A DNA stretch of 38,801 nt from positions 166,718 through 205,518 of the IMG/VR virus record IMGVR_UViG_3300025602_000002, one strand, 5' to 3'. Source of the DNA: a virus. Taxonomy: Duplodnaviria; Heunggongvirae; Uroviricota; Caudoviricetes. Numbering within the stretch: the stretch's first letter is position 1; each line of letters begins with the position of its first letter. Below, in pieces: positions 790 to 38,801 of this stretch. The notes under the pieces are model-generated. The model saw only the letters and a program-made list of their open reading frames with translations, had not been told where the DNA came from and ran no database searches. The position numbers were made by a program, and so were the translations under genes.

Positions 790-1098
790 TCATATAGCCT
801 GCACCAAAACATCAACAGGCATGCTCTCGGTGTGGGTGTCTATAAAAGTATCATTATCATCTTCTAGTCTATAGCTATATATCACATCTATCACTCTAAA
901 AGAATCTCCAGCCCCAACAATAGTGCTTTTGTACTTTTTAAGTGAATCAGGTATATGTAACTCAATAACACCGGTAAGGTAGATTCGTTCACCTATTCTA
1001 GGGACGATGTTAGTGGTTAGACTTCCTATAGTAAACTCATGTCCTTCAGGTAAGCCCATTTTAAAGCACACCTCTACGGACGTCTGTGGTGTATACAT
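790..1098 (-). CDS. Hypothetical protein (ends in TGA)
   Basis: Start moved to ATG 1098 (MYTPQTS) after AAGGAAG; stop codon at 792-790 is TGA. Confidence 0.7.
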   Translation of the reverse strand: MYTPQTSVEVCFKMGLPEGHEFTIGSLTTNIVPRIGERIYLTGVIELHIPDSLKKYKSTIVGAGDSFRVIDVIYSYRLEDDNDTFIDTHTESMPVDVLVQAI

Positions 1099-1141
1099 TG
1101 TTTCTTCCTTTATTTTAATTAATTTAATCGATACACTATCA

Positions 1142-1153
1142 TTCTTATACCCC
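1142..1153 (-). promoter_or_regulatory. GGGTATAAGAA motif copy 2
   Basis: TTCTTATACCCC on + strand, about 45 nt upstream of ATG 1098. Confidence 0.55.
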
Positions 1154-1173
1154 ATTTTATTAATATTTAAGAT

Positions 1174-1211
1174 AAAAAAAAGGGAAATGTGCTTTCACAC
1201 ACTCCCTTTTT
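1174..1211. terminator. Putative bidirectional intrinsic terminator
   Basis: AAAAAGGGA...GTG-CTTT-CAC...TCCCTTTTT imperfect hairpin flanked by A and T tracts. Confidence 0.5.
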
Positions 1212-1328
1212 CAATCGCATTCCTGGAGATTTTTTCAAATATGTATGGGTTCTCTATGTGAGATCTAATTCTTCATGATAGCTCCTAGTTAAAATTAAGT
1301 AATTTTTAATTGCTACTTGTCATCGTTA

Positions 1329-1340
1329 TTCTTATACCCT
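1329..1340 (-). promoter_or_regulatory. GGGTATAAGAA motif copy 3
   Basis: TTCTTATACCCT on + strand at the end of the 1339-1551 gene; no clear gene directly downstream. Confidence 0.45.
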
Positions 1341-1551
1341 AAAAATTGCCAGACCTCGTAATTTTTACAAAGCGTCTAGGTACTGTGATATAGGAGTCTC
1401 TCATATTTTTTTCTTCATGAAAGTCTTCCATCTCTGCAAAAGTGTGGCCAGGGCCGCCAGGACTTCCGCCAGATACCTTTAATTTTCCATTGTGCTTAAT
1501 TAGTGCATCTACACGTTCTTCAACTGTTAATGTAATTTTTTTGCGTATCAT
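1339..1551 (-). CDS. Hypothetical protein
   Basis: 70-aa ORF with GGAG RBS, TAG stop. Confidence 0.65.
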   Translation of the reverse strand: MIRKKITLTVEERVDALIKHNGKLKVSGGSPGGPGHTFAEMEDFHEEKNMRDSYITVPRRFVKITRSGNF

Positions 1552-1569
1552 AAATACACTCCTTTCTGT

Positions 1570-1869
1570 TTATTCAAATCCTAGCGCTAAAAGGCGTTGA
1601 TCCTTTTCTGGAGCTACATAATTAGCTTCAGGTAGAAGCTCCACCAAAACATCTACAAAAGCGTGAATGGTTTGGTCAGCAGCGGCGACGCCGCGTTCGA
1701 GCCAGGCATCAAGCACCTCTTGTCGATATTTATATTCTGAATTTTGTAAGCATATAGCTGTGATCTCATGCCAGACTTTCCCACCGATGTGCTTTTCTCG
1801 TCTATATCCCAGCCGTACTGTGATTACAAAATCATATCCTTTATAGTGAAAGTCTTTCACCATATCCAT
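1570..1869 (-). CDS. Hypothetical protein
   Basis: 99-aa ORF with GAGGAG RBS, TAA stop. Confidence 0.7.
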   Translation of the reverse strand: MDMVKDFHYKGYDFVITVRLGYRREKHIGGKVWHEITAICLQNSEYKYRQEVLDAWLERGVAAADQTIHAFVDVLVELLPEANYVAPEKDQRLLALGFE

Positions 1870-1884
1870 AGTTAATTGCTCCTC

Positions 1885-2310
1885 ATAAGTTTGTTGTTAA
1901 AAATTGCTATTGCCTTACACGATAACCCATCTGCAAACAGTATCGCCACCGCCCACACCTCGGGCAATCTCCTGGGACGGCCAGGTCACTCTCAGACTGT
2001 GTTGTCGGGGGTATAATTACCATAAGCCGGCTGAGTCCTCGCTGCGTCCCATGTTTAAATTTGTGCGAGAGAGGGTCGTGTGATGACAAAATCACCGCCC
2101 GTATCCCGCATTTTTGTTGGCCCCTACCGTAGAGTAGGTTTGCCGCCAACGGCTCGTGTTTTATATTAGCTTAGCTTTCTCCGTGCAGAGTGCCTACGTT
2201 ACTAATATTAGAGAAGACATTCTGTCAAGAATGCCCAGCAGTCCACATTAACCCCTCTCTATGACGCCATAGGAGCGGCCTCTCCTGCATTAAGGTCTCT
2301 CTATTAGACC
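1885..2310 (-). ncRNA. Candidate structured non-coding RNA or leader
   Basis: GC-richer intergenic stretch without a convincing ORF; several hairpins on the minus strand (CCTAC/GTAGG, CCTGG/CCAGG, GGTCT/AGACC, CATTCT/AGAATG, CTATG/CATAG, GTTGGC/GCCAAC, GTGAT/ATCAC). Confidence 0.35.
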
Positions 2311-2807
2311 TATTTTGCTGTAAATTGAAATGGTTCAAATGGTGATCCAATAACCATGTTTGCTTTATCTAAAGGTAGAGTTTCCGTTAACTCATGAGTA
2401 AGGTCGCCTTCATTCTTATAAATAAAGGAGTACTCGAGTTCTCCAAATTCTTCATGAGAATATAAAGTGACTAAGAAAACCTTATCACCTGTTGGAGGAA
2501 AAGTCATCCAAGTTCCTACGCCTCTGCATACTCCATCAACGACTGCGGCTAACTTACCACCCTCGGCTATATTAAAATCTTCTTCAGACAGTTCGGCCAT
2601 CAAAGCGTGATTGTACTCATAGGCATGCTTGTTGACTATAAATAATGGATTAATTTCTTCTGGGGCAACTATAGGTTGTATTTTTTTTAGAGAAGCTTTT
2701 CTCTTTCTATTAGCAGCCTGCTTAGCTTTAGCCCTAGCTATTCTGTCTTGTAAACTTACGTTTCTTTTTCTAGAAGAAGCCGTTTTTATTGGTTTACTGG
2801 GTTTCAT
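2310..2807 (-). CDS. Hypothetical protein (basic N-terminus, acidic C-terminal domain)
   Basis: 165-aa ORF, TAG stop. Confidence 0.7.
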   Translation of the reverse strand: MKPSKPIKTASSRKRNVSLQDRIARAKAKQAANRKRKASLKKIQPIVAPEEINPLFIVNKHAYEYNHALMAELSEEDFNIAEGGKLAAVVDGVCRGVGTWMTFPPTGDKVFLVTLYSHEEFGELEYSFIYKNEGDLTHELTETLPLDKANMVIGSPFEPFQFTAK

Positions 2808-2833
2808 ATATTTATGTGATTTATTAATTAATT

Positions 2834-2878
2834 AAAAAAGGAAGCCCCCGTCCTCAAATTGAGACAAATCACGGGGGC
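2834..2878 (-). terminator. Intrinsic terminator-like hairpin
   Basis: Minus strand GCCCCCGT...ACGGGGGC stem followed by TTCCTTTTTT. Confidence 0.6.
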
Positions 2879-3105
2879 CGCATGGCTTAAATTGCGTTCA
2901 GCTTTTCGGTGTGGCGCTGAAGGTCCTGACTTTACATAACAAAGTCTAAGTGGTACCAGTTAGCCGTGGAGCTTTGTTAAACAACCAAAACGAAAGGAAT
3001 GGCCTTATTTACACTGGTAAGGTAAACAGCCGGGTGTATCATGGTAGCTAGGTCCTCAAAATTCCCAAGGACTGTCGCTACAAAATTATCGTAATTATTA
3101 TCGCT
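2834..3105 (-). ncRNA. Candidate ~270-nt structured ncRNA
   Basis: Bounded by GGGTATAAGAA motif (3115-3126) and terminator (2834-2878); no ORF of note; hairpins GTAGC/GCTAC enclosing GTCCT/AGGAC, GACTTT/AAAGTC, TTCAGC/GCTGAA. Confidence 0.45.
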
Positions 3106-5470: not shown

Positions 5471-5492
5471 ATGTGCTCTCCATTGTTAGGTG

Positions 5493-5564
5493 CAGGGACG
5501 GCAGGACTCGAACCCGCATTGCCGGTTTTGGAGACCGGAGCTCTACCAATTGAACTACGCCCCT
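5493..5564 (-). tRNA. trnW: tRNA-Trp (anticodon CCA)
   Basis: AGGGGCG-TA-GTTC-AATTGGTA-GAGC-T-CCGGT-CTCCAAA-ACCGG-CAAT-GCGGG-TTCGAGT-CCTGC-CGTCCCT-G; full cloverleaf, anticodon at 5531-5529, discriminator G, 3' CCA not encoded. Confidence 0.97.
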
Positions 5565-18561: not shown

Positions 18562-18778
18562 GATACAGAAGAAAAGTGGACCTAAAGATTTTGGGTTAAA
18601 GGTATACGTACACAACCAAGATCAAAGAGGAATTAGTGATGCACTAAGACGCTTAAGAAGCAGATTAGATACAGAAAATATCATGGAAGAAGTGAGATGA
18701 AGACAGCATTATGTTAAGCCTAGCCAAAGAACCAAACATAAAAAGAAAAAATCTAATCCAAGATGTCTCAAAAGATAG
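18551..18778 (+). CDS. rpsU: Ribosomal protein bS21 homologue (75 aa, 1 TGA=Trp)
   Basis: LKVYVHNQDQRGISDALRRLRSRLDTENIMEEVR(W)RQHYVKPSQRTKHKKKK matches the bS21 pattern VxV...ALRR...E.R.R.HY.KPS. Confidence 0.8.
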
Positions 18779-20301
18779 CAATATCACGTAGCGAATTTGC
18801 AGAATCATTTTTCTGGCTAAATGGCGCCCCCTTCTCTTTAGATGATTACCCCCATATGCGACGTGTGTGGGATACTTCGCCTAAAAAGAAAGTTATGCAA
18901 TTTAGCAGACAGACGGCTAAATCCACTACAATGGCGGGAATGGTAACAGCTAATTCTGGTATGATTCCTTTCTTTAAAACTTTATACGTAGCTCCTACGA
19001 TTACTCAAGCTAAGATATTCAGTCATGATAGGGTGAAACCTTTTTTAGAAGGTAGCCCTTTTATGAAAGATCACTATATGAATACTTCTCTAGTAGATAA
19101 TGTTCACCATAAAGAATTAGCTAATGGATCTTTAATGCATATAAGATATGCGCTGCTTTCTGCTGATAAATTACGTGGATTTTCTGCGGATATGAATATT
19201 TTCGATGAGTGTCAGGACATGCTTAGTGAAATTATTCCTGTGGTACAGGAAACTATGACACACTCTGATTATAAATGGATAGTATATTCTGGTACCCCAA
19301 AACGTTCTAGAGGAACTTTAGCTGATTTATGGCATAAATCTACTATGTGCGAATATATAGTTAAGTGCCAAAGTTGTAATCATTGAAATATTTTAGATGA
19401 AGAAAACATTGGGGATTTCGGAGTTATATGTAAGAAGTGTGGTAGACCTTTAGATATTAGTGTAGGAGGAGAATGAGTTTCTACATATTCTTTAAAAAAT
19501 CCTACAGCTATGGAAGGGTATAGAGTTTGCGCTTTACACTTTGCAAAAGCACCCTGGGTTAATTGGCAGGAAGATATATTAGATAAACAAAGGCATTGGT
19601 CTAAAGCTTTTTTTCACAATGAAGTATTAGCGTTAGAATATGATGCTGGAGTATCACCTGTTACAGAATTTGAAATAGATAGAGCCAGTACCGGCCCGTT
19701 AATGGAAGAGGATCCTAACGAGGAACAGCGTAATTATCCTAGTGTATTAGCTATCGATTATGGCCCAGTTAATTCAGAAAAATCTTATACCGTAGCAGTA
19801 GTAATGCAACTTCGCTCTAATAAATTACGAGTAGTTTATGCTAAAAAGTTTATTGGAAAAGAAGCCGATTATAGTTTTATCGTTCCAGAAATTCCTAAAA
19901 TAATGGCTAAGTGAAATTGCGTTAGTGTAGCTTCAGATTATGGAATGGGCGAAGCGCCAAATTCAGAACTCAGAGCTAGAATAGGTTATGAAAAAGTAGT
20001 AGCATTTCAACATTCCGGTACCCAGAAAAATAAAATTCAATGGAATGACAAGATGCCCGCCTACACTTTAAATAGAACTAAAGTAATGACTGAATTCTTT
20101 GAAAACATTAAAAATTTACGAATAGAATTTCCACATACAGTATCAATGGATTCTTTTAAAGAAGACATTATGAATATACAAATTGACTATGACGAAGAGC
20201 GAGGATTTATGAAATATATTAATATAGGTCCAGATGATTTTGCCCATGCTTGTATTTTTGGAACTATAGCTTGCGAACTAATGTTTGGGGCAGTAAAATA
20301 A
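18763..20301 (+). CDS. terL: Terminase large subunit, GpA-like (512 aa, 3 TGA=Trp)
   Basis: SRQTAKST Walker A, FDECQD Walker B, SGTP, CQSCNH(W)...CKKC Zn motif, LAIDYG and DDFAHA nuclease motifs; three track ORFs in one frame. Confidence 0.9.
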
Positions 20302-21886: not shown

Positions 21887-23608
21887 ATGATAGAAAAACG
21901 CGCAGAATACTTTTACGGAGACAATAACTCTGAGGTGTTTACCCTTATCGGTAAGGGAACCATGGAGAAAACTGCGTCGTATTCAGAAGAGTTAGTAGAT
22001 TATATTAATTCTTTAAAAAAGCGTGTTGACAAAGTATATGCTTTAGTAAATGCTTTATCTGCTGGAGAATTTTATAGCTCTAATAGAAATGGTGATCATT
22101 TTCCAGAAAAGGCCTTAAAACAATATCATAAAACATTTGAAGCTTTAGGTCATGTGTACAGACACCATGTAAATAAGGATCCAAGAAAATCGTTAGGTAA
22201 GGTTTTATTTTCACATTATAATCCTACAATGCATCGAGTAGAATTAATATTAGAATTAGATTCTAAAAAAGGTGCAGACGTTATTACAAAAATGCAAAAA
22301 GGAGAATTACCATTTTGTTCTATGGGAACTAAAGTTCCTTTTGACATATGCTCCATTTGCGGAAACAAAGCTCAAACGAGAGCTCAATATTGTGACCACT
22401 TAAAGTATCGTATGAATAATATTTTATCCGACGGTAGAAAAGTTTACGCAATAAATACAATGCCGAAATTTTTTGATATCAGTGTTGTAACTATCCCTGC
22501 CGACAGGACTGCTAGTTTTATTAGGCTTCTTGAAGCAAAATCATCTAGTAGACCTCGTGTTATAAAAATTGCAGAGGAATTACCAAAAGAAACAAAACAG
22601 CTTTTTAAAGCTGCCGGGTTTGAACCAAGAGCAGAAATTAGAAAAAAAGTAGACGTTAAAATAGAGATTGCGGACCAAGATCCAAAAAATATCCTATTAC
22701 ATACTCAGAAAAGACTTTCAGATGAAACAATCGAAAAGCTTTCTAAGTATAATATCGACGAGATACTTTCTACAATGATGGCTTTACGAATTGCACCAGT
22801 TAGAGAAGATTTTCAAAAATTGGCTGCGTACGTTTTTGGACAAAAAGAAGCGGCAGATAAATGGGCTGAAAATGGAGTTTGTTTTATTGTAGATAAGGAC
22901 ACAGTCCCTACAGAATTACCCAATGTAACTTTTGATAATTTTAATAGCAAGATCGCAGGGGTGCTTTTGAAGTCAGTCCCAGATATGTCTCTTACTAAAC
23001 AATGAGTATTAGCAAGAGGAATACATAAAGTAGGATATGAGTCTCAAGCAACAACCTATCCAAGTAATGTTTCTAGAGAACGTAGCGGAATAAAACGTTT
23101 CTTATTTACGCAGAAAGAGGAACCACCTGTTTCAGCACATAGAAATCCAGTAGTTCCATTAGGACTTCTAGGAAGCTTATATTACGGGTATGCGAAGGTA
23201 TTTAATAATCCATCGATTAATAAATTTAGATCGTTTGTAGTTAAATATCCTTGGTTACTTCCAGTATTAGTGGGAGCGGGAACGGCCGGTTCTTTAGCCA
23301 GCCAAAGTGTAGCATTTAATAAAGAAGCCTCTTTAGGAGCTGTGGACAAATTCCTAATGTCTTCTTTAATAACAGTACCAACCGCCTACTATTACGCAGG
23401 TAAACAGGAGAATAAAGCTAGAAAAGGTGTACCTTTAAAACCAACAGAGAACTTTGCCAGAAAACATCCATTACTCGCAGGACTAGTGGGGGCCACTGTA
23501 GCAACAGCTATTAAGAGACCTAAGTTTTTTAAAACAGCAGAGTTATTATCAGAAATAAGTCCGGAAGATTTGGATTTATTGTATAAAGATATCATAGGAG
23601 GGCAATAA
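21887..23608 (+). CDS. Prohead maturation protease with long C-terminal extension (573 aa, 1 TGA=Trp)
   Basis: NRNGDHF, HH, CSMG (putative catalytic Ser), CSICG..YCDHL, FFDISVV; in frame with track ORF 23270 through TGA 23003. Confidence 0.75.
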
Positions 23609-25325: not shown

Positions 25326-26249
25326 ATGGAATATTCAGCTAGTACGCTAAATGAGTTATTTGTAGAAAAGCTTAATTCCCCTGCGGGACTTGAGAAAGTC
25401 GCTATGGAAGGATCAGCTTTCGTTAGACAAAAACTACGTGAAGTTTCTTTTGCAAGAAAAATAATAAATCCACAATATGTAACTAAAGCTGACTTGACAA
25501 GATCTGTCAATCACGACGGCCTAGTTAAAATCGTGGACATCGAGCCTGACTCAGAAGCCATGGCACTGAACATGCGCGGACAGCCAAACCTTAGATACGT
25601 AATGGGCGATCGATTCGAGATACCCCTGTATCAGGTTAGTTCTGAAGACTTTCAGAAGACTGAAGAAGAGCTGTTGGCCTATGAAATGCCACTGACTGAC
25701 ATAATTGAGAAGAACTCAGTACTCGATTTACAACGCATTGAAGATGAAAAATTCTTAGAAGGTGTAGACGCGCTAATGCCCGTTGCAAACGCTAAGACCG
25801 GTTCTTATAGAGCATCCGGCAGTGAAACAGGTGTGATTGAAAAATCAAGCCTAAAAGAACTGTTTGACGTTTTAGACGGAGCGGAATTACGTTGCGATAC
25901 CCTATTAATGGATTCTACAATGTATAACAGATTATTCTTGTATGATGCATCAACTATTGGTGACTCAGCAGGAAGCGAAATCTACATTAATGGTTTCACT
26001 TACAATACGCTCTTCGGACGTAAAGTAGTTGTTTCCAATAAAGTGTTCAAACAGGACGGGTCAACTGCACTGTTACAGAACAAGATCTACGCTTTTGCAC
26101 CACAAGAATTCTTAGGACAATTCTTAGTATTAAACGATACTAAATTCTGGATCGAAAAGAAAAAGAATATTATCACATGGGCCGTGTACGAACACATTGG
26201 CATCGGATTTGGTAACTCCAAAGCGCTTGCTAAACTTACACTGTCGTAG
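25326..26249 (+). CDS. Major capsid protein (probably HK97 fold)
   Basis: 307 aa, AAGGAGG RBS, last gene of protease-scaffold cluster, followed by a strong terminator; EKVA motif near N-terminus. Confidence 0.75.
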   Translation: MEYSASTLNELFVEKLNSPAGLEKVAMEGSAFVRQKLREVSFARKIINPQYVTKADLTRSVNHDGLVKIVDIEPDSEAMALNMRGQPNLRYVMGDRFEIPLYQVSSEDFQKTEEELLAYEMPLTDIIEKNSVLDLQRIEDEKFLEGVDALMPVANAKTGSYRASGSETGVIEKSSLKELFDVLDGAELRCDTLLMDSTMYNRLFLYDASTIGDSAGSEIYINGFTYNTLFGRKVVVSNKVFKQDGSTALLQNKIYAFAPQEFLGQFLVLNDTKFWIEKKKNIITWAVYEHIGIGFGNSKALAKLTLS

Positions 26250-26271: not shown

Positions 26272-26299
26272 AGGGTCGGCTTTGCTGGCCCTTTTTTTT
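26272..26299 (+). terminator. Intrinsic terminator after capsid gene
   Basis: AGGGTCGGC-TTT-GCTGGCCCT followed by a T run. Confidence 0.9.
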
Positions 26300-26303
26300 A
26301 CCC

Positions 26304-26332
26304 TTGACATTTTCCTCCACAAAATCTATATT
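26304..26332 (+). promoter_or_regulatory. Sigma70-like promoter, predicted leaderless transcript
   Basis: TTGACA, 17 nt, TATATT, 5 nt, ATG 26338. Confidence 0.75.
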
Positions 26333-28718: not shown

Positions 28719-31700
28719 ATGAATATATATGGTCACACTTCCTTTGTCGGGCAAACTGGCTATGCCGCTCATGCTCGTGGATTTTTTAGAGCTTTAAATA
28801 ACTACTTACCAGTTAAATTAAGAAATTTTTCTGTAGGGCCTTCCTGAGATGGAGTATCTGATCGTCCTCATGAAAAGGAAACATATCTAACAGACATTGA
28901 TAAAGAAATGTTCATTAGGCAGACTTGTGACGAAGGTATGGATAGTGGGGTGTACAAAGGTATAGATTTTGAGATGTATAACGGAGTCGGAACTCTTCCT
29001 CCAGAAAATCCTGTTAACATAATTTTATCAGAAACAAACCACCATTACTGATTCGAAAATAGTTATCCCGGCTACAACATAGGCTATAATGTCTGAGAAA
29101 GCACTTTATATCCAAATGAGTTTTTTGAAGCACTATTACGAAATGAAATGTTATGAGTACCCACTAAATGGCAACGCGACTGTAGTATCGCCCAAGGATA
29201 CCCTGCTGATAGAGTATTTGTAGTTCCGGAGGCTGTGGACACCTCAATCTTTAACGTTAGTTCTGGAAAAAGACCAGACGAGTTTAAAGACGACCGATAT
29301 AAGTTTGTATTATTTGGCAGATGGGATCATAGAAAATCTACAACAGAAATTTTAAGAGCTTTTAGTGAAGAATTTGGTGCAAATGAACCTATCGATCTGG
29401 TGTGTTCTATCGAGAATCCCCACTCGGTGGATGGAATGAATTCTACTAAAGAACGTTTAGCTTTTCATAAAATAGAACATCCAAATATTAAAATTATACC
29501 TTTTTTACCTAGAAAAGATTACATTAATTATCTTAAATATGGAGATTGTTTTGTATCTTGCGCTAGATCGGAAGGGTGGAACTTACCCTTAATAGAAGCT
29601 ATTGCTTCTGGAATTCCCACCATATGCTCAAGCCATCCGGCACAATTAGATTTTGCGGGAGGAATCTCCCAACAAGTAAGGACTATAGATCAAAGACCTA
29701 TGAAGCCTTTTATGTTTGCTACAGAAGGAGTAGGATTATGAGATGAGCCTGACTTCGACCACTTAAAGGAAATAATGAGAAGCACTTATGAAAATAGAAA
29801 TATAAATAAGGGCCAGGCACTTCTTAAAGCTCCTAGAGTCAATAAATTTAGTTGACAGAATGCGGCATTAACTGCTGTTGATATATTAAATAATAATGTA
29901 AATGAAAATTATTATAAAGATTTTGGAAATTATATTACAGCTATAAAAAGTAATAATACTCCATTAATAAAAATAAATGGACCTATAAAAAAGCAATATA
30001 CTGTTGAATTTCTTGAAGATAATAAAGAAGTATATAAAGCAGAATTATCAAATGAAGATTCTTGGGCGTCTAGTTTTCCTATTTCAAAAGATACAAAAAT
30101 TAGGATAAATGGCGAAGATCAATTTTTGCTTGATAAGGTATCAAATAAAATACAAAGTACTGCTGCAAAATTAGGAGCGTATGTAGTAGGCGGTGATCTC
30201 AAATATATGCCTTATGTAGAGGCGTGTGTAAAAAGTTTATTAGAATTTTCAAAACTCCCAATAATTGTTTATGGATTTAATTGTGAAGTACCCTTTTCAT
30301 ATTCGAGAGTAATAAATAAAAAAATAGAATATTCTGGAGGCAAAGTAAACCAGGTAGGTCATGTAGATAGCCAAAACTATTTTGCTAGAATAGCGGCTGC
30401 ATTAGAAACTACAAAAAATGATGAATTTGATTATTATATTTTTTTAGATGGAGATATGGTAGTGTCGGAAAATATAGACCATCTTAATACTTATGTAGAT
30501 AAACTAAAACATTATCCACTATGTATGAGATATAGATACCCCTCTTTATTACATTTTAGAGAGGATGGGGATGGGCGAAGAGAAAAGAAGCATGGAGAAG
30601 AGCTTTGCGAACTATACGGGTGAGATACCGGTAATTTACCATATAGCGGTCACACAGTGGCCACAGGTATATTTATGTATGATAAAAGATCTCAACGTTT
30701 TTTTGAAGAAGTTCTCCGAGAAGAGGCTTATATAAGGAACATTAGTAATACAGATTCAGATGGTAAAATTTTTGTAGATGACACGGCATGCTCTGAAGAA
30801 CGAATTATTAACATGTTATTTTGAAAATATAAATATGACGAGTTTCTTCCTATAACTTGAATTTCTCCACATGACAATGTTATGGGCTTTAGCCAGGGGC
30901 ATATAGCCTCCTTAAATTATTCTTCTATGTTTTTTATGGAGAATTGGCCCAAAGAAATGGATGAGATTTACCCAAAAAGCGAAGCTAATATACTAGCGTA
31001 TCATCCAGAAATCGATAACAAAAATCCTAATACTGCTTCAAAAGTATTGAGGTTTCTTAAAAAAATTAAGAAAGAGATTGTAGTTATAAGCTCTTATACT
31101 GATACCGCTAGTAAAGAAAAATTATTAAAAGAACGCATAGCGCAAATTAAGGGGTTTGGATACGATATATTATTATCAACCCACTATGATGTTCCTCAGG
31201 AGATAAAAGATGAAGTAGATCACTATGTGTATGATCCAAATAATGAAATATTTGAAACTCCTGAATTTTTTTGAGGAGATCTTTCTGGAGTTTATTTTGA
31301 AACTTTTTATAGTAAAAATAAAAATCATTCTTATGCAGCGTTTACATTATTTAAAAATGCCTTTAATTACTGTAAAAACTTAGAGGTTGATACTATACAT
31401 TTTTTAAATTATGATGTTTTGTTAAAATACAATCCTTTCATTAAATTTAGAACTCTATTAAAGACCACTAATAGTTCAGGATGTTTTATTACAAGTCAAT
31501 CAAACGAAGACAATATAACTTTTGAAAATGTTAGAGTTCTTATGTTTTCAGTTACCACTAAATTTAAAGGATTTGAGGGAATAGATTCTTTACAAGAATA
31601 CTTAGAGCTTTCAGAAAGACAATTGGAGAAGTGACTTTATGAGCGTTTTAGAATGCAAAATATCTGAGATGATATTATAAAATTAGATGAAAAAACAGAA

Positions 31701-34631
31701 GCTTCTCAATATACAATAAAGGATTCCATAAGCTTGACAACTTATAAAGTTAATTTATTTGAAAAAAATAAAAATTTATTGGCCCTAATTTTTAGAGAAA
31801 GATTAGATGATAATGAAGTATTATTTAAATACACTTGCTATGAGGATACTAGAGATGTATTGGAGAGAGAGGCGCATATTAAATTTGAAACAGATAGTAA
31901 AGTGGTGGTGATTAATTTAGGAAATTTAAAAGATGTTAAGAATATTAGTCTTTTAGATTCTCATAATGGTGTGGAAATAACTAAGGAACTAGACGAAAAA
32001 ACTTTATCTGAAATAGAAAATAATATAATTAGGTTAGAAAAAGAAGTAGAAATGGTGGATCTAACAAGAAATGATATATTACAAGCTATAGAAGATAATA
32101 AACCTTTAAAAGAAGTAGTGGCTATTTTAGCCTATACTAACACCAAAGAAAAAATAGATGTTTTAAAAAAATGTATAAAGCGAATTAAGGAATTCGGATA
32201 TGATATTTTGTTAGTAACACACTACCCAGTTAGTTTAGAAATACAAAAATCTGTAGAACATTATGTATATGATAGTAACAATGAAATTATAGAAATCCCG
32301 GTTACTTTTTGATTTGATAACGAAGATTATTTTGTTAAATCTGTAAATCATGAAACTCCAAATCATTCTTATGCAGTATTTTCATTATTTAAAAATGCAG
32401 AAGTATACTGTAAATCACGAGATATAGACATAATTCATTTTTTAAACTACGATATGATTCCGCAAAAGGATTTATTTAAAATTCATAAAGAAGATTTAGG
32501 TAAAGGCGCTCATGGCTCATTTTACTACTATGATACAGATGAGGATTCTTTTGCTATGACATTTTTTTCAATTTCTAAAAATTTTACGGCGTTCAATAAT
32601 ATAAATAATTCCCAGCAATATTTTAAGGCTTCTTCTTCAAGAGATGGGGATTCTAGACTGTATCTAGAGCCTTGGATTTATGATCTTATTATTAAAACAG
32701 AGGGAGAGTCTAATCTAAAAATAAGAAAATATATAGATGTAGAAAAGGATTATGGAGTTAAGAATTTAATTACTGATGGAGCTCTTAATATATATGGATT
32801 TGTATATAAGAAAGAATTTAGGTTAGTATTAGGTAAACCAAATATTACTGATGATTCTAAATATTTGTTAAAATATAATGGTAAGGAAATTAATTTAGAT
32901 TTTTCAGGTTCTAAATTTTTTCATCATAATTTGGGATTAAGTTCTAAACTAAATAAATATCAAATATATAAAGATGGTAAATTATTCAAGAATGAGCTAG
33001 TTACAAAAGATTACAAAAAAAGAATAGAAAAATATAACACATTTGTCGTGAAGGCTGATACTAAACTTCCTAATAAGTTGATGATAGTAGCTCACCCGGA
33101 CGACGAACTTATTTTTGGAGGATACGACTTATTAAAAGACCCTGAAGATTGAAAAGTTATATCAGTAACGGGAAAAAGTAATCCAATTAGAGCGTATGAG
33201 TTTAGCAAAGCTATGGAAACTTTAGGAGTAGGAGAATATGCTTTATGAGATTTTCCTGACTCTTTATATGATAAATTTGATGAAAAATATTTAAGAAAAT
33301 TTATATTAGGTGAAACTTCTAGAAGATATTATAAAAAAATAGTAACTCATAATTCTAACGGAGAGTACGGGCATGTACAGCATAAATCTCTTCATGATGC
33401 TATGATAGAAATTAGTCCTAGAAATTTATATACTTTCTCGATAGGAGATAAAACTAAAATATATCCTTTAGAAGAAAAAAGAAAATTACTTGAAGTTTAT
33501 GAGAGTGAGGAAACAGAATTGCCTGGTTATTTAGATTATCTTTATTACGGGGAATCAACTTCTATATTAAATGGAAATATATCAGTTGACCATAATTTTG
33601 TAGATGGACCATTTGTAGAATTGTGAGGATCAGAATCTGACCATACTTATGATATAAAATTTATTGATCAAGATTTAGAAGAGGTTGTATATGAGAAAAT
33701 TGGAGTATCTGCTAATAGCTGAATTAAAGCAAGTAGAGTATATTTTACCAATTATATGATTACGGTACATAAAGGTGAAGAATTAGTGAACCAATACGCT
33801 TTTAATTGTGATAATAAACGAGTATTAATTGCGTTAGATAGCAGCTCTCTAGGAGATACTTTGGCTTGAATACCCTATGTTCAAAAGTTTAAAGAAAAAC
33901 ATAATTGCGAAGTAATAGTGTCTACATTCCATAATCATTTGCTTGATTATCCAGAATTAAAGTTTATTAGTCCGGGAACTACTGTTGACAATTTATACGC
34001 AAGCTATGTAGTAGGTATTAGAGAAGATGATGATTTCCTTCATAAAAGAAATCCATTTTCAATTCCTTTACAAGAGGTTGCTTGTGATATTTTAGGTCTC
34101 GAGTATGAAGAACTATTACCGCAAATGGCTAAGATTAAAGGACATACTGATATTGACGGTCCTTATGTATGTCTAGCGGCCCACTCCACAGCTCAGTGTA
34201 AATATTGAAATTATCCTGGAGGATGGCAAACTGTGGTAGACTATTTAAATTCAAAAGGTTATAAAGTAGTAGTTATAAGTAAAGAAGAAAGTGAATTAAA
34301 TGGCATAATCGACAAAACTAACTTGAATCTTACTGAAACAATGCGTATATTGAAACATGCTACATTCTTTATGGGATTGAGTTCAGGATTAGCTTGGCTA
34401 GCTTGAGCGTTAAAGGTGCCAGTATTAATGATTTCCGGCTTTACAGCGCCTTGGTATGAATTTAAATGTGTTAGAATGCATAAAGACACAGTATGTCATA
34501 ATTGTTTTAATGAGGAAAAATTTGATAGAGGCGATTGAAATTGATGTCCTAGAGGAAAGAATTTCGAGTGCTCTTCAAGTATTTTACCAGAGGAGGTAAT
34601 TAATACTATTTATGAAAATTGAAATATCTAA
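28719..34631 (+). CDS. Giant multidomain glycosylation protein (1970 aa, 23 TGA=Trp): GT4 + GT-A-like + duplicated domain + PIG-L-like deacetylase + TibC/GT9-like heptosyltransferase
   Basis: Eight track ORFs in one frame with no TAA/TAG between 28719 and 34629 (gaps checked codon by codon); NV(W)ES, GRWDHRKS, RSEGWNLPLIEA, FS(W); FLDGD; AHPDDE and THN..GEYGHVQH; SLGDTLA(W)IPY, GLSSGLAWLA(W), CHNC. Confidence 0.85.
31071..32453 (+). repeat. Duplicated 115-aa domain within the glycosylation protein
   Basis: 31071-31415 and 32109-32453 share GYDILL.THY, HYVYD.NNEI, F(W), NHSYA.F.LFKNA, IHFLNYD. Confidence 0.85.
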
Positions 34632-34992
34632 TGGAGAATTAATAGATAAGCTATCTATTCTTCAATTAAAAACTGAGAATTTTACTGACCCAGAAAAGAT
34701 TAAAAATGTACAAACAGAATTTGAGGCTTTACAACATAGCGTTGTAGAGCTATTGAATTTCTCATTGGATTCTGAAAGTTATATGAATCTTTATAATTGT
34801 AATGCAGAGCTATGGGATATAGAGGACCAACTGCGTAGAAAAGAACAATTAAAAGAGTTTGATGAGGAATTTATAAAATTAGCGCGAGCAGTGTATTACA
34901 CTAATGACACTAGAGCTAATTTAAAAAAAATAATTAACAACGAAACCAACTCTATGTTTATTGAGGAAAAAGAATACGTAAACTATAACTAG
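34612..34992 (+). CDS. DUF6165-like protein
   Basis: MKIEISNGELIDKLSILQLK...NAELWDIEDQLR...LARAVYYTNDTRA..K..IN. Confidence 0.75.
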   Translation: MKIEISNGELIDKLSILQLKTENFTDPEKIKNVQTEFEALQHSVVELLNFSLDSESYMNLYNCNAELWDIEDQLRRKEQLKEFDEEFIKLARAVYYTNDTRANLKKIINNETNSMFIEEKEYVNYN

Positions 34993-35006
34993 TTTGGAGA
35001 CCCCGC

Positions 35007-38000
35007 ATGTCAGGACAAATAAAAGCCAAACAAATATCGGATGTATATAGCCAATCACAGGCTAATGCAACATTTTCAGCAAAATCCCACAACGCATCCG
35101 CCGCACCACCAGCGTCCCCAATAACTGGACAGACTTGGTGAGATTCATCTAATGAAGTATTAAAAACATGAACAGGTAGTACATGAGTAGCCTCTGAAGG
35201 TACCTCAGGTACTTCTGGCTCAAGCGGAGCTAGCGGTGCTAGCGGTACTTCCGGATCAAGCGGAGCTAGCGGTGCTAGCGGTACTTCCGGAACTAGCGGT
35301 ACTTCTGGATCAAGCGGATCAGCAGGTTCAAGCGGATCTTCGGGGACTTCCGGAACTTCTGGAACTTCAGGATCAAGCGGAACTTCAGGATCAAGCGGTA
35401 CGAGTGGTACAAGTGGTACGAGTGGTACTTCAGGTTCAAGCGGTTCAGCAGGTTCAAGCGGTTCAAGCGGTACGAGTGGTACTTCTGGATCAAGCGGGAC
35501 TTCAGGAACTTCAGGATCAAGCGGATCATCAGGATCAAGCGGAACTTCGGGAACTTCTGGTTCAAGCGGGACTTCAGGAACTTCTGGTTCAAGCGGGTCA
35601 GCAGGATCAAGCGGTTCTTCCGGAACTTCCGGATCAAGCGGTACGAGTGGAACTTCAGGATCTTCTGGAGAGAAAGGAGTTACTGGAGATTCAGGATCAA
35701 GTGGATCAAGCGGAACCTCAGGCTCTTCTGGAGCTAAAGGAGACGCTGGAACGAGTGGTTCAAGCGGAACTTCTGGTTCAAGCGGAACTTCAGGATCAAG
35801 CGGTACTGGCGGTACTTCTGGGTCTTCTGGAGGAGTTGGAACGAGCGGTACTTCAGGATCAAGCGGAGCAGCAGGAACTTCAGGTTCAAGTGGAGATACG
35901 GGGGTGCCCGGAGCTTCAGGGTCAAGTGGTTCTTCCGGAACCTCAGGATCAAGCGGTACGAGTGGTACTTCGGGGTCAAGTGGAACTAGCGGTACTAGTG
36001 GTACTTCGGGTTCGAGTGGATCAAGCGGTTCAAGCGGTTCAAGCGGTACGAGTGGTACTTCAGGTTCAAGCGGTACGAGTGGTACTTCAGGTTCAAGCGG
36101 ATCAAGCGGTTCAAGTGGATCAAGCGGTACGAGTGGTACTTCCGGAACTAGCGGAACTTCGGGATCGAGTGGAGCAGCTGGAACTTCAGGAACAAGCGGT
36201 TCAAGCGGAATAGACGGAACTTCCGGGTCAAGTGGTACGAGCGGTATAGGCGGAACTTCCGGATCTTCAGGAGGTGCAGGTACAAGTGGTACTTCTGGAT
36301 TAAGCGGTACGAGTGGTACGAGCGGTTCTTCTGGGACTTCCGGATCAAGCGGGACTTCTGGATCAAGCGGTTCAAGCGGTTCAAGCGGCACAAGCGGTAC
36401 TTCCGGTTTAAGCGGAACGTCAGGTTCAAGCGGTACAAGTGGAACTTCAGGATCAAGCGGAACTTCAGGATTAAGCGGAACTTCAGGATCAAGCGGTACA
36501 AGTGGAACTTCAGGTTCAAGCGGATCAGCAGGATCAAGCGGTTCAAGCGGATCAAGCGGATCAAGCGGTACGAGTGGTACTTCGGGGTCAAGTGGAACTA
36601 GCGGTACGAGCGGTACTTCGGGCTCAAGCGGGGATAGTGGTACGAGTGGTACTTCAGGGTCAAGTGGGACTTCAGGAATTAGCGGTACTTCAGGGTCAAG
36701 TGGGACTTCAGGAATTAGCGGTACTTCAGGATCAAGCGGAACTAGCGGTACTAGCGGTACTTCTGGGTCAAGCGGGACTAGCGGTACTAGCGGTACTTCT
36801 GGGTCAAGCGGGACTGCGGGTACAAGCGGTACTTCTGGATCAAGTGGAACTAGCGGTACAAGTGGAACCTCAGGGTCAAGCGGTTCAAGCGGTTCAAGTG
36901 GAACTAGCGGTTCAAGCGGAACTTCAGGAACTTCTGGAACTTCAGGTTCAAGCGGAACTAGCGGTACGAGTGGTACCTCTGGATCAAGCGGTTCAAGCGG
37001 TTCAAGCGGTGTAAGCGGCACTTCCGGATCAAGCGGTACGAGTGGTACTTCAGGTTCAAGCGGTTCAGCAGGTTCAAGCGGTTCAAGTGGAACTTCAGGA
37101 ACTAGCGGAACTTCAGGATCAAGCGGAACCTCAGGAACTTCAGGATCAAGCGGTACGAGTGGAACTTCGGGATCTTCTGGAGAAAAAGGAGTTATTGGGG
37201 ATTCAGGATCTAGCGGGTCAAGTGGGACCTCGGGCTCTTCTGGAGCGAAAGGAGACGCTGGAACAAGCGGTTCAAGCGGAACTTCCGGAACTAGCGGAAC
37301 TTCAGGTTCAAGCGGTACTGGCGGTACCTCTGGGTCTTCTGGAGGAGTTGGAACTAGCGGAACTTCAGGATCAAGCGGAGCTGCAGGAACTTCCGGTTCA
37401 AGCGGTACTTCCGGTTCAAGCGGAACTTCCGGAACTAGCGGAACTTCGGGTTCAAGTGGAACTTCCGGAACTAGCGGAACCTCAGGATCAAGCGGTATAA
37501 GTGGAACTTCAGGATCAAGCGGTTCAAGCGGTTCAAGCGGATCAAGCGGAACCTCAGGATCAAGCGGTACAAGTGGTACGAGTGGTACTTCAGGTTCAAG
37601 CGGTACGAGTGGTACAAGTGGTACTAGCGGGTCGTCTGGAACTAGCGGGTCAAGTGGAACTTCCGGTTCAAGTGGTACGAGCGGAACCTCAGGATCTTCT
37701 GGAGAAAAAGGGGTTACGGGGGATTCAGGTACAAGCGGCTCAAGTGGAACTAGCGGTACAAGTGGAACTTCAGGATCAAGCGGAACTAGCGGTACGAGTG
37801 GTACTAGCGGGTCATCTGGAACAAGCGGATCAAGCGGAACTTCAGGAACTTCTGGAACTTCAGGATCAAGCGGAACTTCAGGAACTTCTGGAACTTCCGG
37901 GTCAAGCGGAACTTCAGGAACTTCAGGAACTTCAGGTTCAAGTGGATCTGCAGGATCAAGTGGTTCTTCCGGAACTTCAGGATCAAGCGGTACAAGCGGT

Positions 38001-38801
38001 ACTAGTGGTACTTCGGGGTCAAGCGGTACAAGTGGTACGAGTGGTACTTCAGGTTCAAGCGGAACTAGTGGTACTTCTGGGTCAAGCGGTTCAGCAGGTT
38101 CAAGCGGTTCAAGCGGAACCTCTGGTTCAAGTGGTACTTCAGGCTCAAGTGGAACTTCAGGTACAAGCGGAACTTCAGGTTCAAGCGGAACTTCAGGTAC
38201 AAGCGGAACTTCTGGGTCAAGCGGTTCAGCAGGTTCAAGCGGTTCTTCCGGAACCTCAGGTTCAAGCGGTACGAGTGGTACTTCAGGATCAAGCGGTACA
38301 AGTGGAACTTCAGGATCAAGCGGAACTTCAGGATCAAGCGGAACTTCAGGAACTTCAGGATCAAGCGGAACTTCAGGAACTTCAGGTTCTAGCGGAACCT
38401 CCGGGTCAAGTGGAACTTCAGGAACTTCAGGTTCAAGTGGATCGGCAGGTTCAAGCGGTTCAAGCGGAACTTCGGGATCAAGCGGAACTTCAGGAACTTC
38501 AGGTTCAAGCGGTTCAAGCGGATCATCAGGATCAAGCGGAACTTCCGGGTCAAGCGGAACTTCAGGAACTTCAGGTTCAAGCGGATCAGCAGGATCAAGT
38601 GGCTCTTCCGGAACCTCCGGGTCAAGCGGTACGAGTGGAACTTCCGGGTCAAGCGGTACGAGCGGAACCTCCGGATCAAGTGGTTCAAGCGGTTCAAGCG
38701 GTTCAAGCGGTTCAAGCGGTTCAAGCGGAACGTCTGGATCATCTGGTAACACCGGAAATGCAGCCGGACATGTCCAGTACAACTTTGACAGCTCAACAAC
38801 T
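35007..38801 (+). CDS. Collagen-like tail/virion fibre, partial (at least 1265 aa, 3 TGA=Trp)
   Basis: ATG 35007; PASPITGQTW(W)DSSNEVLKT(W)TGST(W) fibre motif, then Gly-X-Y repeat; open at the window end. Confidence 0.88.
35199..38762 (+). repeat. Gly-X-Y repeat, 396 triplets by length, mainly G-S-S and G-T-S
   Basis: 9-nt periodicity (GGN-TCA-AGC, GGA-ACT-TCA); Gly every third codon, mirrored by Pro every third residue in the antisense shadow ORF. Confidence 0.95.

What the first reader, a model, noticed from the sequence alone, without database searches (positions are those of the whole stretch)
28719..34992. 1970-aa glycan-building polyprotein carrying 23 UGA codons
One frame holds a GT4 (GT-B) domain, a DxD GT-A-like domain, two copies of an unassigned domain, a PIG-L-like de-N-acetylase and a TibC/AAH-like (GT9-related) heptosyltransferase. 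DUF6165 and the Ser/Thr collagen follow. TGA outnumbers TGG (23 versus about 9), so full-length product is highly sensitive to readthrough efficiency. A deacetylase fused into a multi-GT chain suggests an assembly line for a defined oligosaccharide.
Basis: partly seen in the sequence, partly recalled or inferred. Interest (0 to 1): 0.75.

Follow-up and report, generated by a model that had tools for sequence, protein, structure and literature searches.

The report
Recoded phage multi-glycosyltransferase beside collagen fibre
A large phage encodes one 1970-residue enzyme, readable only if the stop codon TGA means tryptophan, that joins five sugar-transferase-type domains and a sugar deacetylase and most likely coats the phage's own proline-free collagen-like fibre with sugars; no experiment has tested this.

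Summary
Window 28719-34631 (+) is one 1970-codon frame with 23 TGA, 9 TGG and no other stop. The TGA codons fall on tryptophans that are invariant in standard-code homologues, so the gene is real and TGA means Trp.

- GT4
- a DxD retaining GT-A domain
- a duplicated domain with no Pfam family, now shown to have a GT-A/nucleotidyltransferase fold
- a PIG-L deacetylase with intact zinc motifs
- a TibC/Aah-type protein O-heptosyltransferase domain, above NCBIfam's equivalog cut-off, with the catalytic Asp and the four iron-finger Cys

Homologues are not split genes. They are single 1100-2600 aa proteins in many phages, built from the same domains in shuffled order.

DUF6165 and a collagen-like gene of more than 1537 aa follow directly (445 Gly-X-Y triplets, Y is Ser in 91%). 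The TibC-type gene and Gly-Ser/Thr-Ser collagen genes co-occur strongly in both directions, including in the cultured Microcystis phage Mel-JY01.

Best reading: a late, recoding-gated enzyme that O-glycosylates the fibre. The donor sugars and the target are inferred, not shown.

This scan has already noted the TibC-collagen pairing in at least 71 other genomes. I found no paper describing it.

The parts
28719..34631 (+). Single 1970-aa gene (P0001) with 23 in-frame TGA read as Trp: a fused multi-glycosyltransferase plus deacetylase
28719..29918 (+). Residues 1-400: GT4 (GT-B) glycosyltransferase domain with the E285-x7-E293 motif
   Evidence: Pfam PF00534/PF13692 and PHROG 2170; motif
30177..31028 (+). 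Residues 487-770: GT-A domain with invariant D577-x-D579. The fold resembles retaining GT-A enzymes (WbbM, GT6, GT8 glycogenin, GT24 UGGT). No Pfam family.
   Evidence: alignment A3; model pLDDT 80.5; Foldseek E about 1e-7; no Pfam hit
31071..31748 (+). Residues 785-1010: copy 1 of the duplicated domain. It has a nucleotide-diphospho-sugar transferase (GT-A/nucleotidyltransferase) fold, no Pfam family, and a conserved H...N...N...(N/E)xD pattern.
32109..32738 (+). Residues 1131-1340: copy 2 of the same domain (41% identical to copy 1)
33078..33518 (+). Residues 1454-1600: PIG-L/LmbE-type de-N-acetylase with invariant AHPDDE and GEYGHxxH motifs
   Evidence: Pfam PF02585; alignment of 11 homologues
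33570..34610 (+). Residues 1618-1964: TibC/Aah-type (BAHT) protein O-heptosyltransferase-like domain. D1713 corresponds to TibC Asp-110. T1824, K1828 and W1893 are conserved, as are iron-finger Cys 1926/1929/1943/1951. The TibC Arg-286 position is Thr.
   Evidence: TIGR04414 265 bits; PDB 4rap; residues
34612..34992 (+). DUF6165 gene (126 aa), overlapping the end of the large gene by 20 nt. It is an occasional neighbour of the TibC-type domain.
   Evidence: Pfam PF19662; found in 7 of 91 related loci, directly downstream in 3; mostly viral family
35007..38801 (+). Collagen-like fibre gene, Gly-(Thr/Ser)-Ser triplets. It runs on to the end of the virus record (more than 1537 aa) and has a repeated globular insert of about 115 aa. 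It is the presumed substrate.
26272..26332 (+). Terminator-like hairpin (26272-26292) followed by the best promoter-like site (26304-26332) after the capsid gene. This may be the start of the transcription unit holding the enzyme, DUF6165 and collagen genes. Weak: consensus matches only.

Best explanation
This is a real late gene of a large phage. The virus record is 141.8 kb and is estimated to be 67% complete. The gene is translated with TGA as tryptophan into one 1970-residue multidomain enzyme.

Shown here: the frame, the Trp meaning of TGA, the identity of the domains, the intact catalytic motifs, the fused architecture in relatives, and the genetic linkage to collagen-like genes.

Inferred mechanism: the C-terminal TibC/Aah-type domain transfers a first sugar (heptose or a related sugar) onto serines of the Gly-X-Ser triplets of the fibre protein encoded 376 nt downstream. 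The GT4 domain, the DxD GT-A domain and the two copies of the new GT-A-fold domain then extend the glycan. The PIG-L domain removes an N-acetyl group from an amino sugar in the chain. The result would be a glycan-coated, proline-free collagen-like virion fibre.

The first of the 23 TGA codons is at codon 43, so the enzyme can be made only once TGA is being decoded. This ties its production to the recoded rightward (late) gene set.
For: Gene and code:
- 23 TGA, 9 TGG and no other in-frame stop, against 158-184 TAA+TAG in the other two frames.
- At 22 assessable TGA sites, standard-code homologues have Trp as the majority residue at 15. It is nearly invariant at 126, 146, 379, 702, 714, 1198, 1668, 1717, 1830, 1896, 1940 and 1942. 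Four more sites are aromatic.
- In-frame TGA is concentrated in + strand genes: TGA:TGG is 113:117 there against 42:298 on the - strand.
- The genome encodes a tRNA with anticodon UCA.

Domains:
- Family and structure hits.
- Catalytic motifs intact: GT4 ExxxxxxxE, DxD, AHPDDE/HxxH, TibC Asp-110, Thr-226, Lys-230, Trp-305 and four iron-finger Cys.

Fusion is ancestral to the family:
- 62 homologues of 1089-3178 aa were found. The 59 strong ones (1089-2598 aa) carry the same domains in shuffled order.
- They translate under table 11.
- TibC-type matches lie in stop-free frames of 683-1379 aa in 10 of the 12 records that have one.

Link to the fibre:
- The genes are contiguous and co-directional.
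- 42 of 80 independent IMG/VR loci centred on the TibC-type domain hold at least 8 Gly-X-Y triplets within 10 kb. X is mostly Thr/Ser and Y mostly Ser.
- In complete genomes of 253 and 318 kb, every collagen-pattern hit lies within about 12 kb of the TibC-type gene.
- In reverse, 12 of 44 viral records chosen only for the collagen pattern hold a TibC-type domain.
- The cultured Microcystis phage Mel-JY01 has the same pairing.
- Here the Y position is Ser in 404 of 445 triplets, and TibC/Aah modify Ser, not Thr (PMC4358343).
Against: - No glycan, donor sugar or acceptor has been measured; the target is inferred from gene linkage alone.
- The TibC sugar-binding residue Arg-286 is Thr here, and in 9 of 16 phage homologues, so the donor may not be ADP-heptose.
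- No PfkB or GmhA-type heptose pathway gene was found in the 141.8 kb held, although a third of the genome is missing.
- About half of the related loci show no collagen gene within 10 kb; many of those are short fragments.
- Most collagen-bearing records lack a TibC-type gene, so the pairing is frequent but not obligatory.
- The duplicated domain's fold is shared by sugar nucleotidyltransferases, so it may make donors rather than transfer sugars.
- The amino acid carried by the UCA tRNA was not tested. It scores as tRNA-Sec in Rfam.
Confidence: 0.66

Rival explanations
1. The enzyme remodels the host cell envelope (LPS core or O-chain, or a host surface protein) during infection, for example to block superinfection. 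The neighbouring fibre gene would then be coincidental.
For: This is the published reading of glycosyltransferases clustered near tail-fibre genes in aquatic T4-like phages (PMC7029224). GT9, GT4 and GT8-like domains are typical LPS enzymes. AlphaFold DB neighbours of the duplicated domain include WavE, an LPS synthesis protein.
Against: The GT9-related domain scores 265 bits on the protein-glycosylating TibC/Aah equivalog but only 24.8 bits (cut-off 185.3) on LPS heptosyltransferase I. It keeps the iron finger that is specific to the protein-modifying family. The gene sits in the late structural block and is linked in both directions to Ser-rich collagen genes. No membrane anchor or lipid-carrier enzyme was seen; this was not searched exhaustively.
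Confidence: 0.14
2. The enzyme glycosylates virion proteins other than, or as well as, the collagen-like fibre (capsid, decoration or Ser-rich non-collagen structural proteins), as mycobacteriophages do with capsid and tail-tube C-termini.
For: Phage virion glycosylation by phage glycosyltransferases is established (Freeman et al. 2023, PMC10527164, cited). About half of the related loci show no collagen gene within 10 kb. In Mel-JY01 a Ser-rich 'structural protein' lies between the collagen gene and the enzyme gene.
Against: The collagen linkage is strong and specific to the Gly-(Thr/Ser)-Ser type: Y is mostly Ser in 40 of 42 loci. The enzyme, DUF6165 and collagen genes here are contiguous.
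Confidence: 0.12
3. Some of the 'transferase' domains, namely the two copies of the unassigned domain, are sugar nucleotidyltransferases. They would make activated donors for the true transferases, so the protein combines donor synthesis with transfer.
For: The structural neighbours are a mix of GT-A glycosyltransferases and nucleotidyltransferases at equal Z values of 11-13.6, including KdsB, GDP-mannose pyrophosphorylase, IspD and HddC. Relatives carry separate PfkB and cytidylyltransferase-like genes next to the enzyme.
Against: The best match is a glycosyltransferase (mannosylglycerate synthase, Z 13.6). Most AlphaFold DB neighbours are glycosyltransferases. The conserved (N/E)xD follows a strand at the place where GT-A enzymes have their DxD. 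No nucleotidyltransferase signature was tested.
Confidence: 0.15
4. The frame is a decayed pseudogene or an assembly artefact, and the 23 TGA codons are real stops.
For: Under table 11 the region breaks into ORFs of at most 232 aa.
Against: TGA falls on Trp positions that are invariant across 50 or more homologues. There is no TAA or TAG in 1970 codons. All catalytic motifs are intact. The same recoding runs through the other rightward genes.
Confidence: 0.01

Closest known systems
TibC and Aah/AAH, the bacterial autotransporter heptosyltransferases (BAHT family; TIGR04414; PDB 4RAP/4RB4; PMC4358343)
   Same: The C-terminal domain scores above the equivalog cut-off. It keeps the catalytic Asp-110, Thr-226, Lys-230, Trp-305 and the four iron-finger cysteines. 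Like TibC/Aah it would hyper-glycosylate serines of a long repetitive fibrous protein in the cytoplasm.
   Different: It is encoded by a phage and fused to five other domains. The presumed substrate is a collagen-like Gly-X-Ser repeat, not an autotransporter beta-helix. Arg-286 is replaced by Thr. The donor sugar and oligomeric state are unknown.
Chlorovirus PBCV-1 multidomain glycosyltransferases (A064R: two rhamnosyltransferase domains plus a methyltransferase; A111/114R); from my own knowledge and the review PMC9614988 listed
   Same: A virus-encoded single polypeptide joins several sugar-modifying domains that build a glycan on a virion protein without the host machinery.
   Different: Those are eukaryotic-virus enzymes that make N-linked capsid glycans. 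There is no BAHT domain, no deacetylase, no sequence relationship shown here, and no stop-codon recoding.
Mycobacteriophage virion glycosylation (Freeman et al. 2023, PMC10527164)
   Same: Phage-encoded glycosyltransferases O-glycosylate the phage's own structural proteins.
   Different: Those are separate small GT genes acting on capsid and tail-tube C-termini, with no collagen substrate, TibC-type domain or fusion.
Glycosylated collagen-like proteins: Bacillus anthracis BclA (Gly-X-Thr repeats carrying O-glycans) and Riftia cuticle collagen (galactosylated Thr stabilises a proline-poor triple helix); from my own knowledge
   Same: Proline-poor Gly-X-Ser/Thr collagen repeats whose hydroxyl residues carry O-glycans. 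In Riftia the glycan supplies triple-helix stability.
   Different: Different enzymes and organisms. Here Ser, not Thr, occupies the Y position, and glycosylation is only inferred.
Stop-codon-recoded phages with TGA read as Trp in late genes
   Same: In-frame TGA is confined to one gene set, a suppressor-type tRNA(UCA) is present in the phage genome, and high-copy head genes avoid TGA.
   Different: Nothing different in kind. This gene is simply the most TGA-laden one in the record: 23 of the 113 in-frame TGA codons in + strand ORFs.

Membership tests
BAHT (TibC/Aah protein O-heptosyltransferases, TIGR04414) | Whole-domain score above the curated equivalog cut-off | tested here: met
   265.3 bits against a cut-off of 200, covering model positions 7-371 of 374; PDB 4rap E 1.9e-48
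BAHT (TibC/Aah protein O-heptosyltransferases, TIGR04414) | Catalytic base Asp-110 | tested here: met
   D1713 aligns with it and is invariant in 16 phage homologues
BAHT (TibC/Aah protein O-heptosyltransferases, TIGR04414) | Iron finger: four Cys (TibC 339, 342, 358, 370) | tested here: met
   C1926, C1929, C1943 and C1951 are invariant in 16 of 16
BAHT (TibC/Aah protein O-heptosyltransferases, TIGR04414) | Sugar-binding residues Thr-226, Lys-230, Trp-305 and Arg-286 | tested here: inconclusive
   Thr, Lys and Trp are invariant. The Arg-286 position is Thr here (T in 9, R in 4, S in 2, L in 1 of 16 homologues). Three of four are met and one is not.
BAHT (TibC/Aah protein O-heptosyltransferases, TIGR04414) | ADP-heptose as donor; serine O-heptosylation | not testable with these tools
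   The site that sets donor stereoselectivity (TibC Pro-300 / AAH Ser-294) is Ser here. No PfkB or SIS_2 heptose-pathway gene was found in the 141.8 kb held.
BAHT (TibC/Aah protein O-heptosyltransferases, TIGR04414) | Substrate is an autotransporter passenger domain; dodecameric ring | not testable with these tools
   The candidate substrate I infer is the adjacent collagen-like protein. I did not search the record for an autotransporter gene, and no substrate was tested.
GT4 (Pfam Glycos_transf_1, GT-B) | Pfam score above the gathering cut-off and the E-x7-E motif | tested here: met
   39.1 bits against 26.4; E285-GWNLPLI-E293
PIG-L / LmbE zinc deacetylases (PF02585) | Pfam score above the cut-off, plus the AHPDD(E) and HxxH metal and catalytic motifs | tested here: met
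   41.6 bits against 28.2; AHPDDE and GEYGHxxH are invariant in 11 homologues. The meaning of the motifs comes from established knowledge of MshB/LmbE.
Retaining GT-A glycosyltransferases (GT6/GT8/GT24-like) | GT-A fold with a DxD metal-binding motif | tested here: met
   D577-x-D579 is invariant in 12 homologues. The model has pLDDT 80.5. Foldseek finds WbbM, GTA/GTB, UGGT and glycogenin at E about 1e-7 and TM 0.35-0.5. The CAZy family was not assigned: there is no Pfam hit and no significant PDB sequence hit.
Nucleotide-diphospho-sugar transferase fold (duplicated domain) | GT-A-type Rossmann-like fold; glycosyltransferase rather than nucleotidyltransferase activity | tested here: inconclusive
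   The fold is met: Z 13.6 to mannosylglycerate synthase 2bo4 and Z 11-13 to many GT-A and nucleotidyltransferase chains; Foldseek. The two activities cannot be told apart by fold. There is no Pfam family. The family has 1628 representatives in the 1.84-billion-protein library.
Collagen triple-helix repeat (PF01391) | Long uninterrupted Gly-X-Y repeats | tested here: met
   Pfam E 1.6e-28; runs of 396 and 49 triplets. Triple-helix formation itself cannot be tested here.
TGA-to-Trp recoded phage genes | In-frame TGA at conserved Trp positions; a UCA-anticodon tRNA in the genome | tested here: met
   The amino acid charged onto the tRNA cannot be tested here.

The most novel reading that the evidence does not exclude
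The enzyme is a self-contained glycan assembly line. It would place a defined, partly de-N-acetylated oligosaccharide of up to about five sugars on nearly every Gly-X-Ser triplet, more than 400 sites per chain. That glycan, not proline or hydroxyproline, would be what lets a proline-free collagen triple helix fold and stay stable, as galactosyl-threonine does in Riftia cuticle collagen. Fibre maturation would then depend on a stop-codon-recoded enzyme, and the phage fibre would carry a dense glycan coat that sets adsorption or shields the fibre.
Probability: 0.2. Interest if true: 0.85.

Novelty: new variant of a known kind. Interest (0 to 1): 0.62.

Why it matters
If the inference holds, many environmental phages glycosylate their own fibres with an enzyme family known so far only from pathogenic E. 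coli adhesins. At least 590 IMG/VR loci carry the TibC-type domain, and it also occurs in 636-735 kb megaphages and in a cultured Microcystis phage. The phages do this through large, freely shuffled multi-enzyme fusions.

That would have four consequences:
- It would extend phage virion glycosylation far beyond mycobacteriophages.
- It would give a function to the Ser/Thr-only collagen-like genes that break many phage assemblies.
- It would define a new GT-A-fold domain family that has no Pfam entry.
- It would change the usual reading of glycosyltransferases near tail-fibre genes, which are now taken to modify the host O-antigen.

The question is testable now, because a cultured phage (Mel-JY01) and standard-code homologues exist.

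Tried and rejected
- **The Atlas fold search** failed on the remote side.
- **PDB by sequence:** phmmer with residues 1-1590, and profiles of the DxD domain and the duplicated domain, gave nothing significant. Only fold comparison placed these domains.
- **Linker segments** (395-490, 1000-1135, 1325-1455, 1600-1700): BLAST shows no significant similarity among them, and Pfam gives only a sub-threshold TibC_1st hit, E 0.017, for 1560-1700. I therefore do not claim repeated beta-barrel linkers.
- **Genes not found in the 141.8 kb record:** release-factor PCRF, PfkB and SIS_2. The one CTP_transf_like gene, at G000:C1:95794-96222, was not characterised.
- **DUF6165 as an obligatory partner** is rejected: it occurs in only 7 of 91 related loci.
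- **Literature searches** for phage + collagen-like + heptosyltransferase, TibC + phage, and Mel-JY01 found no description of this system.
- **Gly (code 25) or Sec/Cys at TGA** is rejected, because Trp or another aromatic residue occupies the aligned positions.
Full report
**Observation**

Under table 11 the region 28.7-34.6 kb breaks into ORFs of at most 232 aa. With TGA read as a sense codon it becomes one ORF, 28719-34631 (+), of 1970 aa ending in TAA. A direct codon count gives 23 TGA, 9 TGG and 0 TAG in frame. The other two frames of the same DNA hold 158 and 184 TAA+TAG stops. The finding's end coordinate, 34992, is the end of the next gene.

**Is TGA tryptophan?**

- The C-terminal domain aligns with the crystal-structure sequence of TibC. 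Five of the six aligned TGA codons sit on a TibC Trp and the sixth on Phe.
- In an alignment with 15 standard-code phage homologues, residues 1668, 1717, 1830, 1896, 1940 and 1942 (all TGA) are invariant or nearly invariant Trp.
- Over the whole protein, 22 of the 23 TGA sites can be assessed against up to 58 homologues. Trp is the majority residue at 15 of them and an aromatic residue at 4 more. The 9 TGG sites behave the same way.
- Gly (code 25), Sec/Cys and true stops are therefore excluded for this gene.

The window lies in an IMG/VR virus record of 141,836 bp, estimated 67% complete. In-frame TGA is concentrated in ORFs on the window's + strand (TGA:TGG 113:117), against 42:298 on the other strand. 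The capsid, scaffold and portal-region genes have none.

The record encodes 29 tRNAs, among them one with anticodon UCA and one with CUA. The UCA tRNA has a long extra arm and scores just above Rfam's tRNA-Sec threshold. No release-factor gene was found.

This gene uses TGA for 72% of its Trp codons, against 45% in the other + strand genes (Fisher p = 0.007). That goes with its very AT-rich third codon positions: GC3 is 20% and gene GC is 30.8%, against 36% for its neighbours.

The first TGA is at codon 43, so nothing useful is made without recoding. This is reassignment rather than leaky readthrough.

**Domains**

| Domain | Residues | Evidence |
|---|---|---|
| GT4 (GT-B) | about 1-400 | Pfam PF00534 and PF13692 above cut-off; PHROG 2170 E 7.8e-25; E285-x7-E293 motif |
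| GT-A with DxD | 487-770 | No Pfam family and no PDB hit by sequence. D577-x-D579 invariant in 12 homologues. AlphaFold model pLDDT 80.5. Fold matches retaining GT-A enzymes: WbbM, blood-group GTA/GTB, UGGT, glycogenin (Foldseek E about 1e-7). |
| Duplicated domain | 785-975 and 1131-1323 | The two copies are 41% identical, E 3e-43. No Pfam family. Model pLDDT 73. Nucleotide-diphospho-sugar transferase fold: Z 13.6 to mannosylglycerate synthase, Z 11-13 to many GT-A glycosyltransferases and sugar nucleotidyltransferases. |
| PIG-L deacetylase | 1454-1565 | PF02585 at 41.6 bits against 28.2; AHPDDE and GEYGHxxH invariant in 11 homologues |
| TibC/Aah-type | 1618-1964 | TIGR04414 equivalog at 265 bits against 200, but LPS heptosyltransferase I only 24.8 against 185 |

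An exhaustive profile search with the duplicated domain finds 1628 representative proteins. Some are stand-alone proteins of about 330 aa and some are embedded in large fusions. Fold alone cannot say whether this domain transfers sugars or activates them.

The TibC structure paper (PMC4358343) names the residues that matter for that family. The catalytic base Asp-110, the sugar-binding Thr-226, Lys-230 and Trp-305, and the four iron-finger Cys are invariant in all 16 phage sequences. Arg-286 is Thr here and in 9 of the 16. The site that selects the heptose stereoisomer is Ser, as in AAH.

The linker segments between domains gave no significant family or mutual similarity.

**Are homologues split?**

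No. A length-matched search found 62 proteins of 1089-3178 aa, and the 59 strong ones (1089-2598 aa) share several of these domains. Pairwise mapping shows the same modules in different orders:
- GT4, TibC, DxD, PIG-L in a group of about 1240 aa.
- GT4, DxD, PIG-L, duplicated domain, TibC, then a methyltransferase in P0003.
- GT4, duplicated domain, TibC in a group of about 1110 aa.
- Others carry methyltransferase or GT2 modules in the middle.

Three homologues checked on their contigs translate under table 11. They lie in phage contigs, two of which carry T4-type portal, gp23, prohead protease, gp13 and sheath genes. Among viral records picked for another reason, the TibC-type domain sits in stop-free frames of 683-1379 aa in 10 of the 12 that have one.

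'Polyprotein' is not the right word, since nothing points to cleavage. Because domain order is shuffled, it cannot encode reaction order.

**Context and likely substrate**

The window is a phage late region. It holds the large terminase (18763-20301), a prohead protease-like gene (21887-23608) and the major head protein (25326-26249). A terminator-like hairpin and the best promoter-like site follow the head gene at 26272-26332 (consensus matches only).

The enzyme gene is followed by DUF6165, which overlaps it by 20 nt (PF19662, E 4.6e-14). Fifteen nucleotides after that comes a collagen-like gene that runs off the end of the record, so it is longer than 1537 aa. It has 445 Gly-X-Y triplets. 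X is Thr in 214 and Ser in 190. Y is Ser in 404. Only one Pro lies inside the repeats. A globular insert of about 115 aa occurs at least twice and has no Pfam family.

TibC and Aah modify Ser, not Thr, in repetitive fibrous proteins. That fits a fibre whose Y position is almost always Ser.

**Linkage test**

- More than 590 IMG/VR stretches encode a relative of the TibC-type domain. Of the best 80 loci, many of them short fragments, 42 hold at least 8 Gly-X-Y triplets within 10 kb. These are nearly always on the same strand, with X mostly Thr/Ser and Y mostly Ser in 40 of the 42.
- In complete genomes of 253 kb and 318 kb, every collagen-pattern hit lies within about 8 and about 12 kb of the TibC-type gene. 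In a 548 kb genome the hits that were listed (the list was cut off) lie within about 12 kb of it, across the record ends.
- In reverse, of 44 viral records chosen only because they contain eight Gly-(Ser/Thr)-(Ser/Thr) triplets, 12 hold a TibC-type domain. Among records at least 90% complete the figure is 3 of 6.
- In the INPHARED collection the domain occurs in four records: three uncultured megaphage records of 636-735 kb and the cultured Microcystis phage Mel-JY01. In Mel-JY01 it is the C-terminus of a 1226-aa protein annotated 'methyltransferase FkbM'.
- About 1.7 kb upstream of that gene lies an unannotated ORF of more than 1000 aa made of Gly-(Thr/Ser)-Ser triplets. The record's annotation instead calls the antisense Pro-Glu-Val-Pro frames.
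- DUF6165 is only an occasional neighbour: 7 of 91 loci, directly downstream in 3. It is a mostly viral helical protein of unknown role.

**Explanation and rivals**

The best-supported reading (about 0.66) is a late, recoding-dependent enzyme that O-glycosylates the phage's own collagen-like fibre. The TibC-type domain would prime serines. The GT4 and GT-A-type domains would extend the glycan. PIG-L would expose an amine on an amino sugar.

Every biochemical step in that reading is inferred. The donor may not be heptose, because Arg-286 is replaced and no heptose-pathway genes were found in the part of the genome held. Some relatives do carry PfkB and cytidylyltransferase-like genes next to the enzyme.

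The rivals are:
- Host envelope remodelling, which is the published reading of glycosyltransferases near fibre genes in aquatic T4-like phages (PMC7029224).
- Glycosylation of other virion proteins.
- A donor-making rather than donor-using role for the duplicated domain.
- A pseudogene, which searches exclude.

**Novelty**

The recoding is of a known kind, and each Pfam-recognised domain is a known family. What I could not find in the literature is three things together: a phage BAHT-type enzyme, its fusion into shuffled multi-enzyme proteins, and its linkage to Ser/Thr-only collagen.

This scan has noted the TibC-collagen pairing in at least 71 other genomes, so this window is not its first sighting. 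What this case adds:
- One of the richest fusions seen, with six catalytic-type domains including an internal duplication and a deacetylase.
- The fold of two domains that had no assignment.
- The Arg-286 difference from TibC.
- A cultured phage in which the idea can be tested.

**Tool failures**

Noticed in passing
window 34958-38782 (-), and L215 (Microcystis phage Mel-JY01, PP395634.1) 1-651 and 739-2298 (-): The antisense strand of the collagen gene gives a long open frame of Pro-Glu/Leu-Val-Pro repeats (1274 aa here). In the GenBank record of Mel-JY01 such antisense frames are annotated as hypothetical proteins, while the true + strand Gly-(Thr/Ser)-Ser collagen ORF (2-3052) is not annotated.
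   Followed up: yes
G000:C1:135590-135686 (outside the window; locus L093 295-387, -): The phage's only UCA-anticodon tRNA is 97 nt long with a long extra arm. It scores 48.5 bits on Rfam tRNA-Sec (threshold 47), although the TGA sites in this gene are Trp positions. An earlier scan note reads it as an unusual Trp suppressor.
   Followed up: partly
genome, reverse-complement coordinates 40894-40970 (outside the window): A tRNA with anticodon CUA (amber suppressor type) is present. Yet the long ORFs, including the 1970-aa gene, have no in-frame TAG.
   Followed up: no
window 35007-38801 and on to the end of the record (L094): The virus record ends inside the collagen-like gene. In two complete huge-phage records (G001, G004) the collagen repeats also sit at the record ends. 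This suggests that such repeats commonly break or delimit phage assemblies.
   Followed up: partly
collagen protein residues about 1253-1371, repeated from about 1519 (window 38765 onward and L094): A globular insert of about 115 aa between collagen runs occurs at least twice and has no Pfam family. It may be a receptor-binding or trimerisation module.
   Followed up: partly
window 28719-34631, compared with 6000-28700 and 35000-38800: There are sharp composition steps: the enzyme gene has 30.8% GC (27% in the duplicated domains, GC3 20%), the upstream late genes 36%, and the collagen gene 53%.
   Followed up: partly
L002 15750-17503; L005 8644-9815; L215 11243-13162: Relatives carry sugar-activation-type genes next to the fused enzyme: PfkB kinase, cupin and CTP_transf_like in L002; APS kinase and CTP_transf_like in L005; a 639-aa 'cytidylyltransferase like protein' in Mel-JY01. 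They are possible donor-synthesis partners, reminiscent of HldE.
   Followed up: no
L003 13665-14828 (-) and 17323-20130 (+): In one T4-like relative a TnpB/Cas12f-like (OrfB_IS605) gene abuts the fused enzyme gene, and the portal gene carries an intein.
   Followed up: no
window 5492-5564 (-): An ordinary tRNA-Trp (CCA) is encoded in the window's leftward arm, so the phage carries both a UGG reader and a UCA-anticodon tRNA.
   Followed up: partly
genome, reverse-complement coordinates 32398-32769 (outside the window): ARAGORN calls a tmRNA-like gene (tag GRPAVKLAA*) in the phage record. I did not check it further.
   Followed up: no
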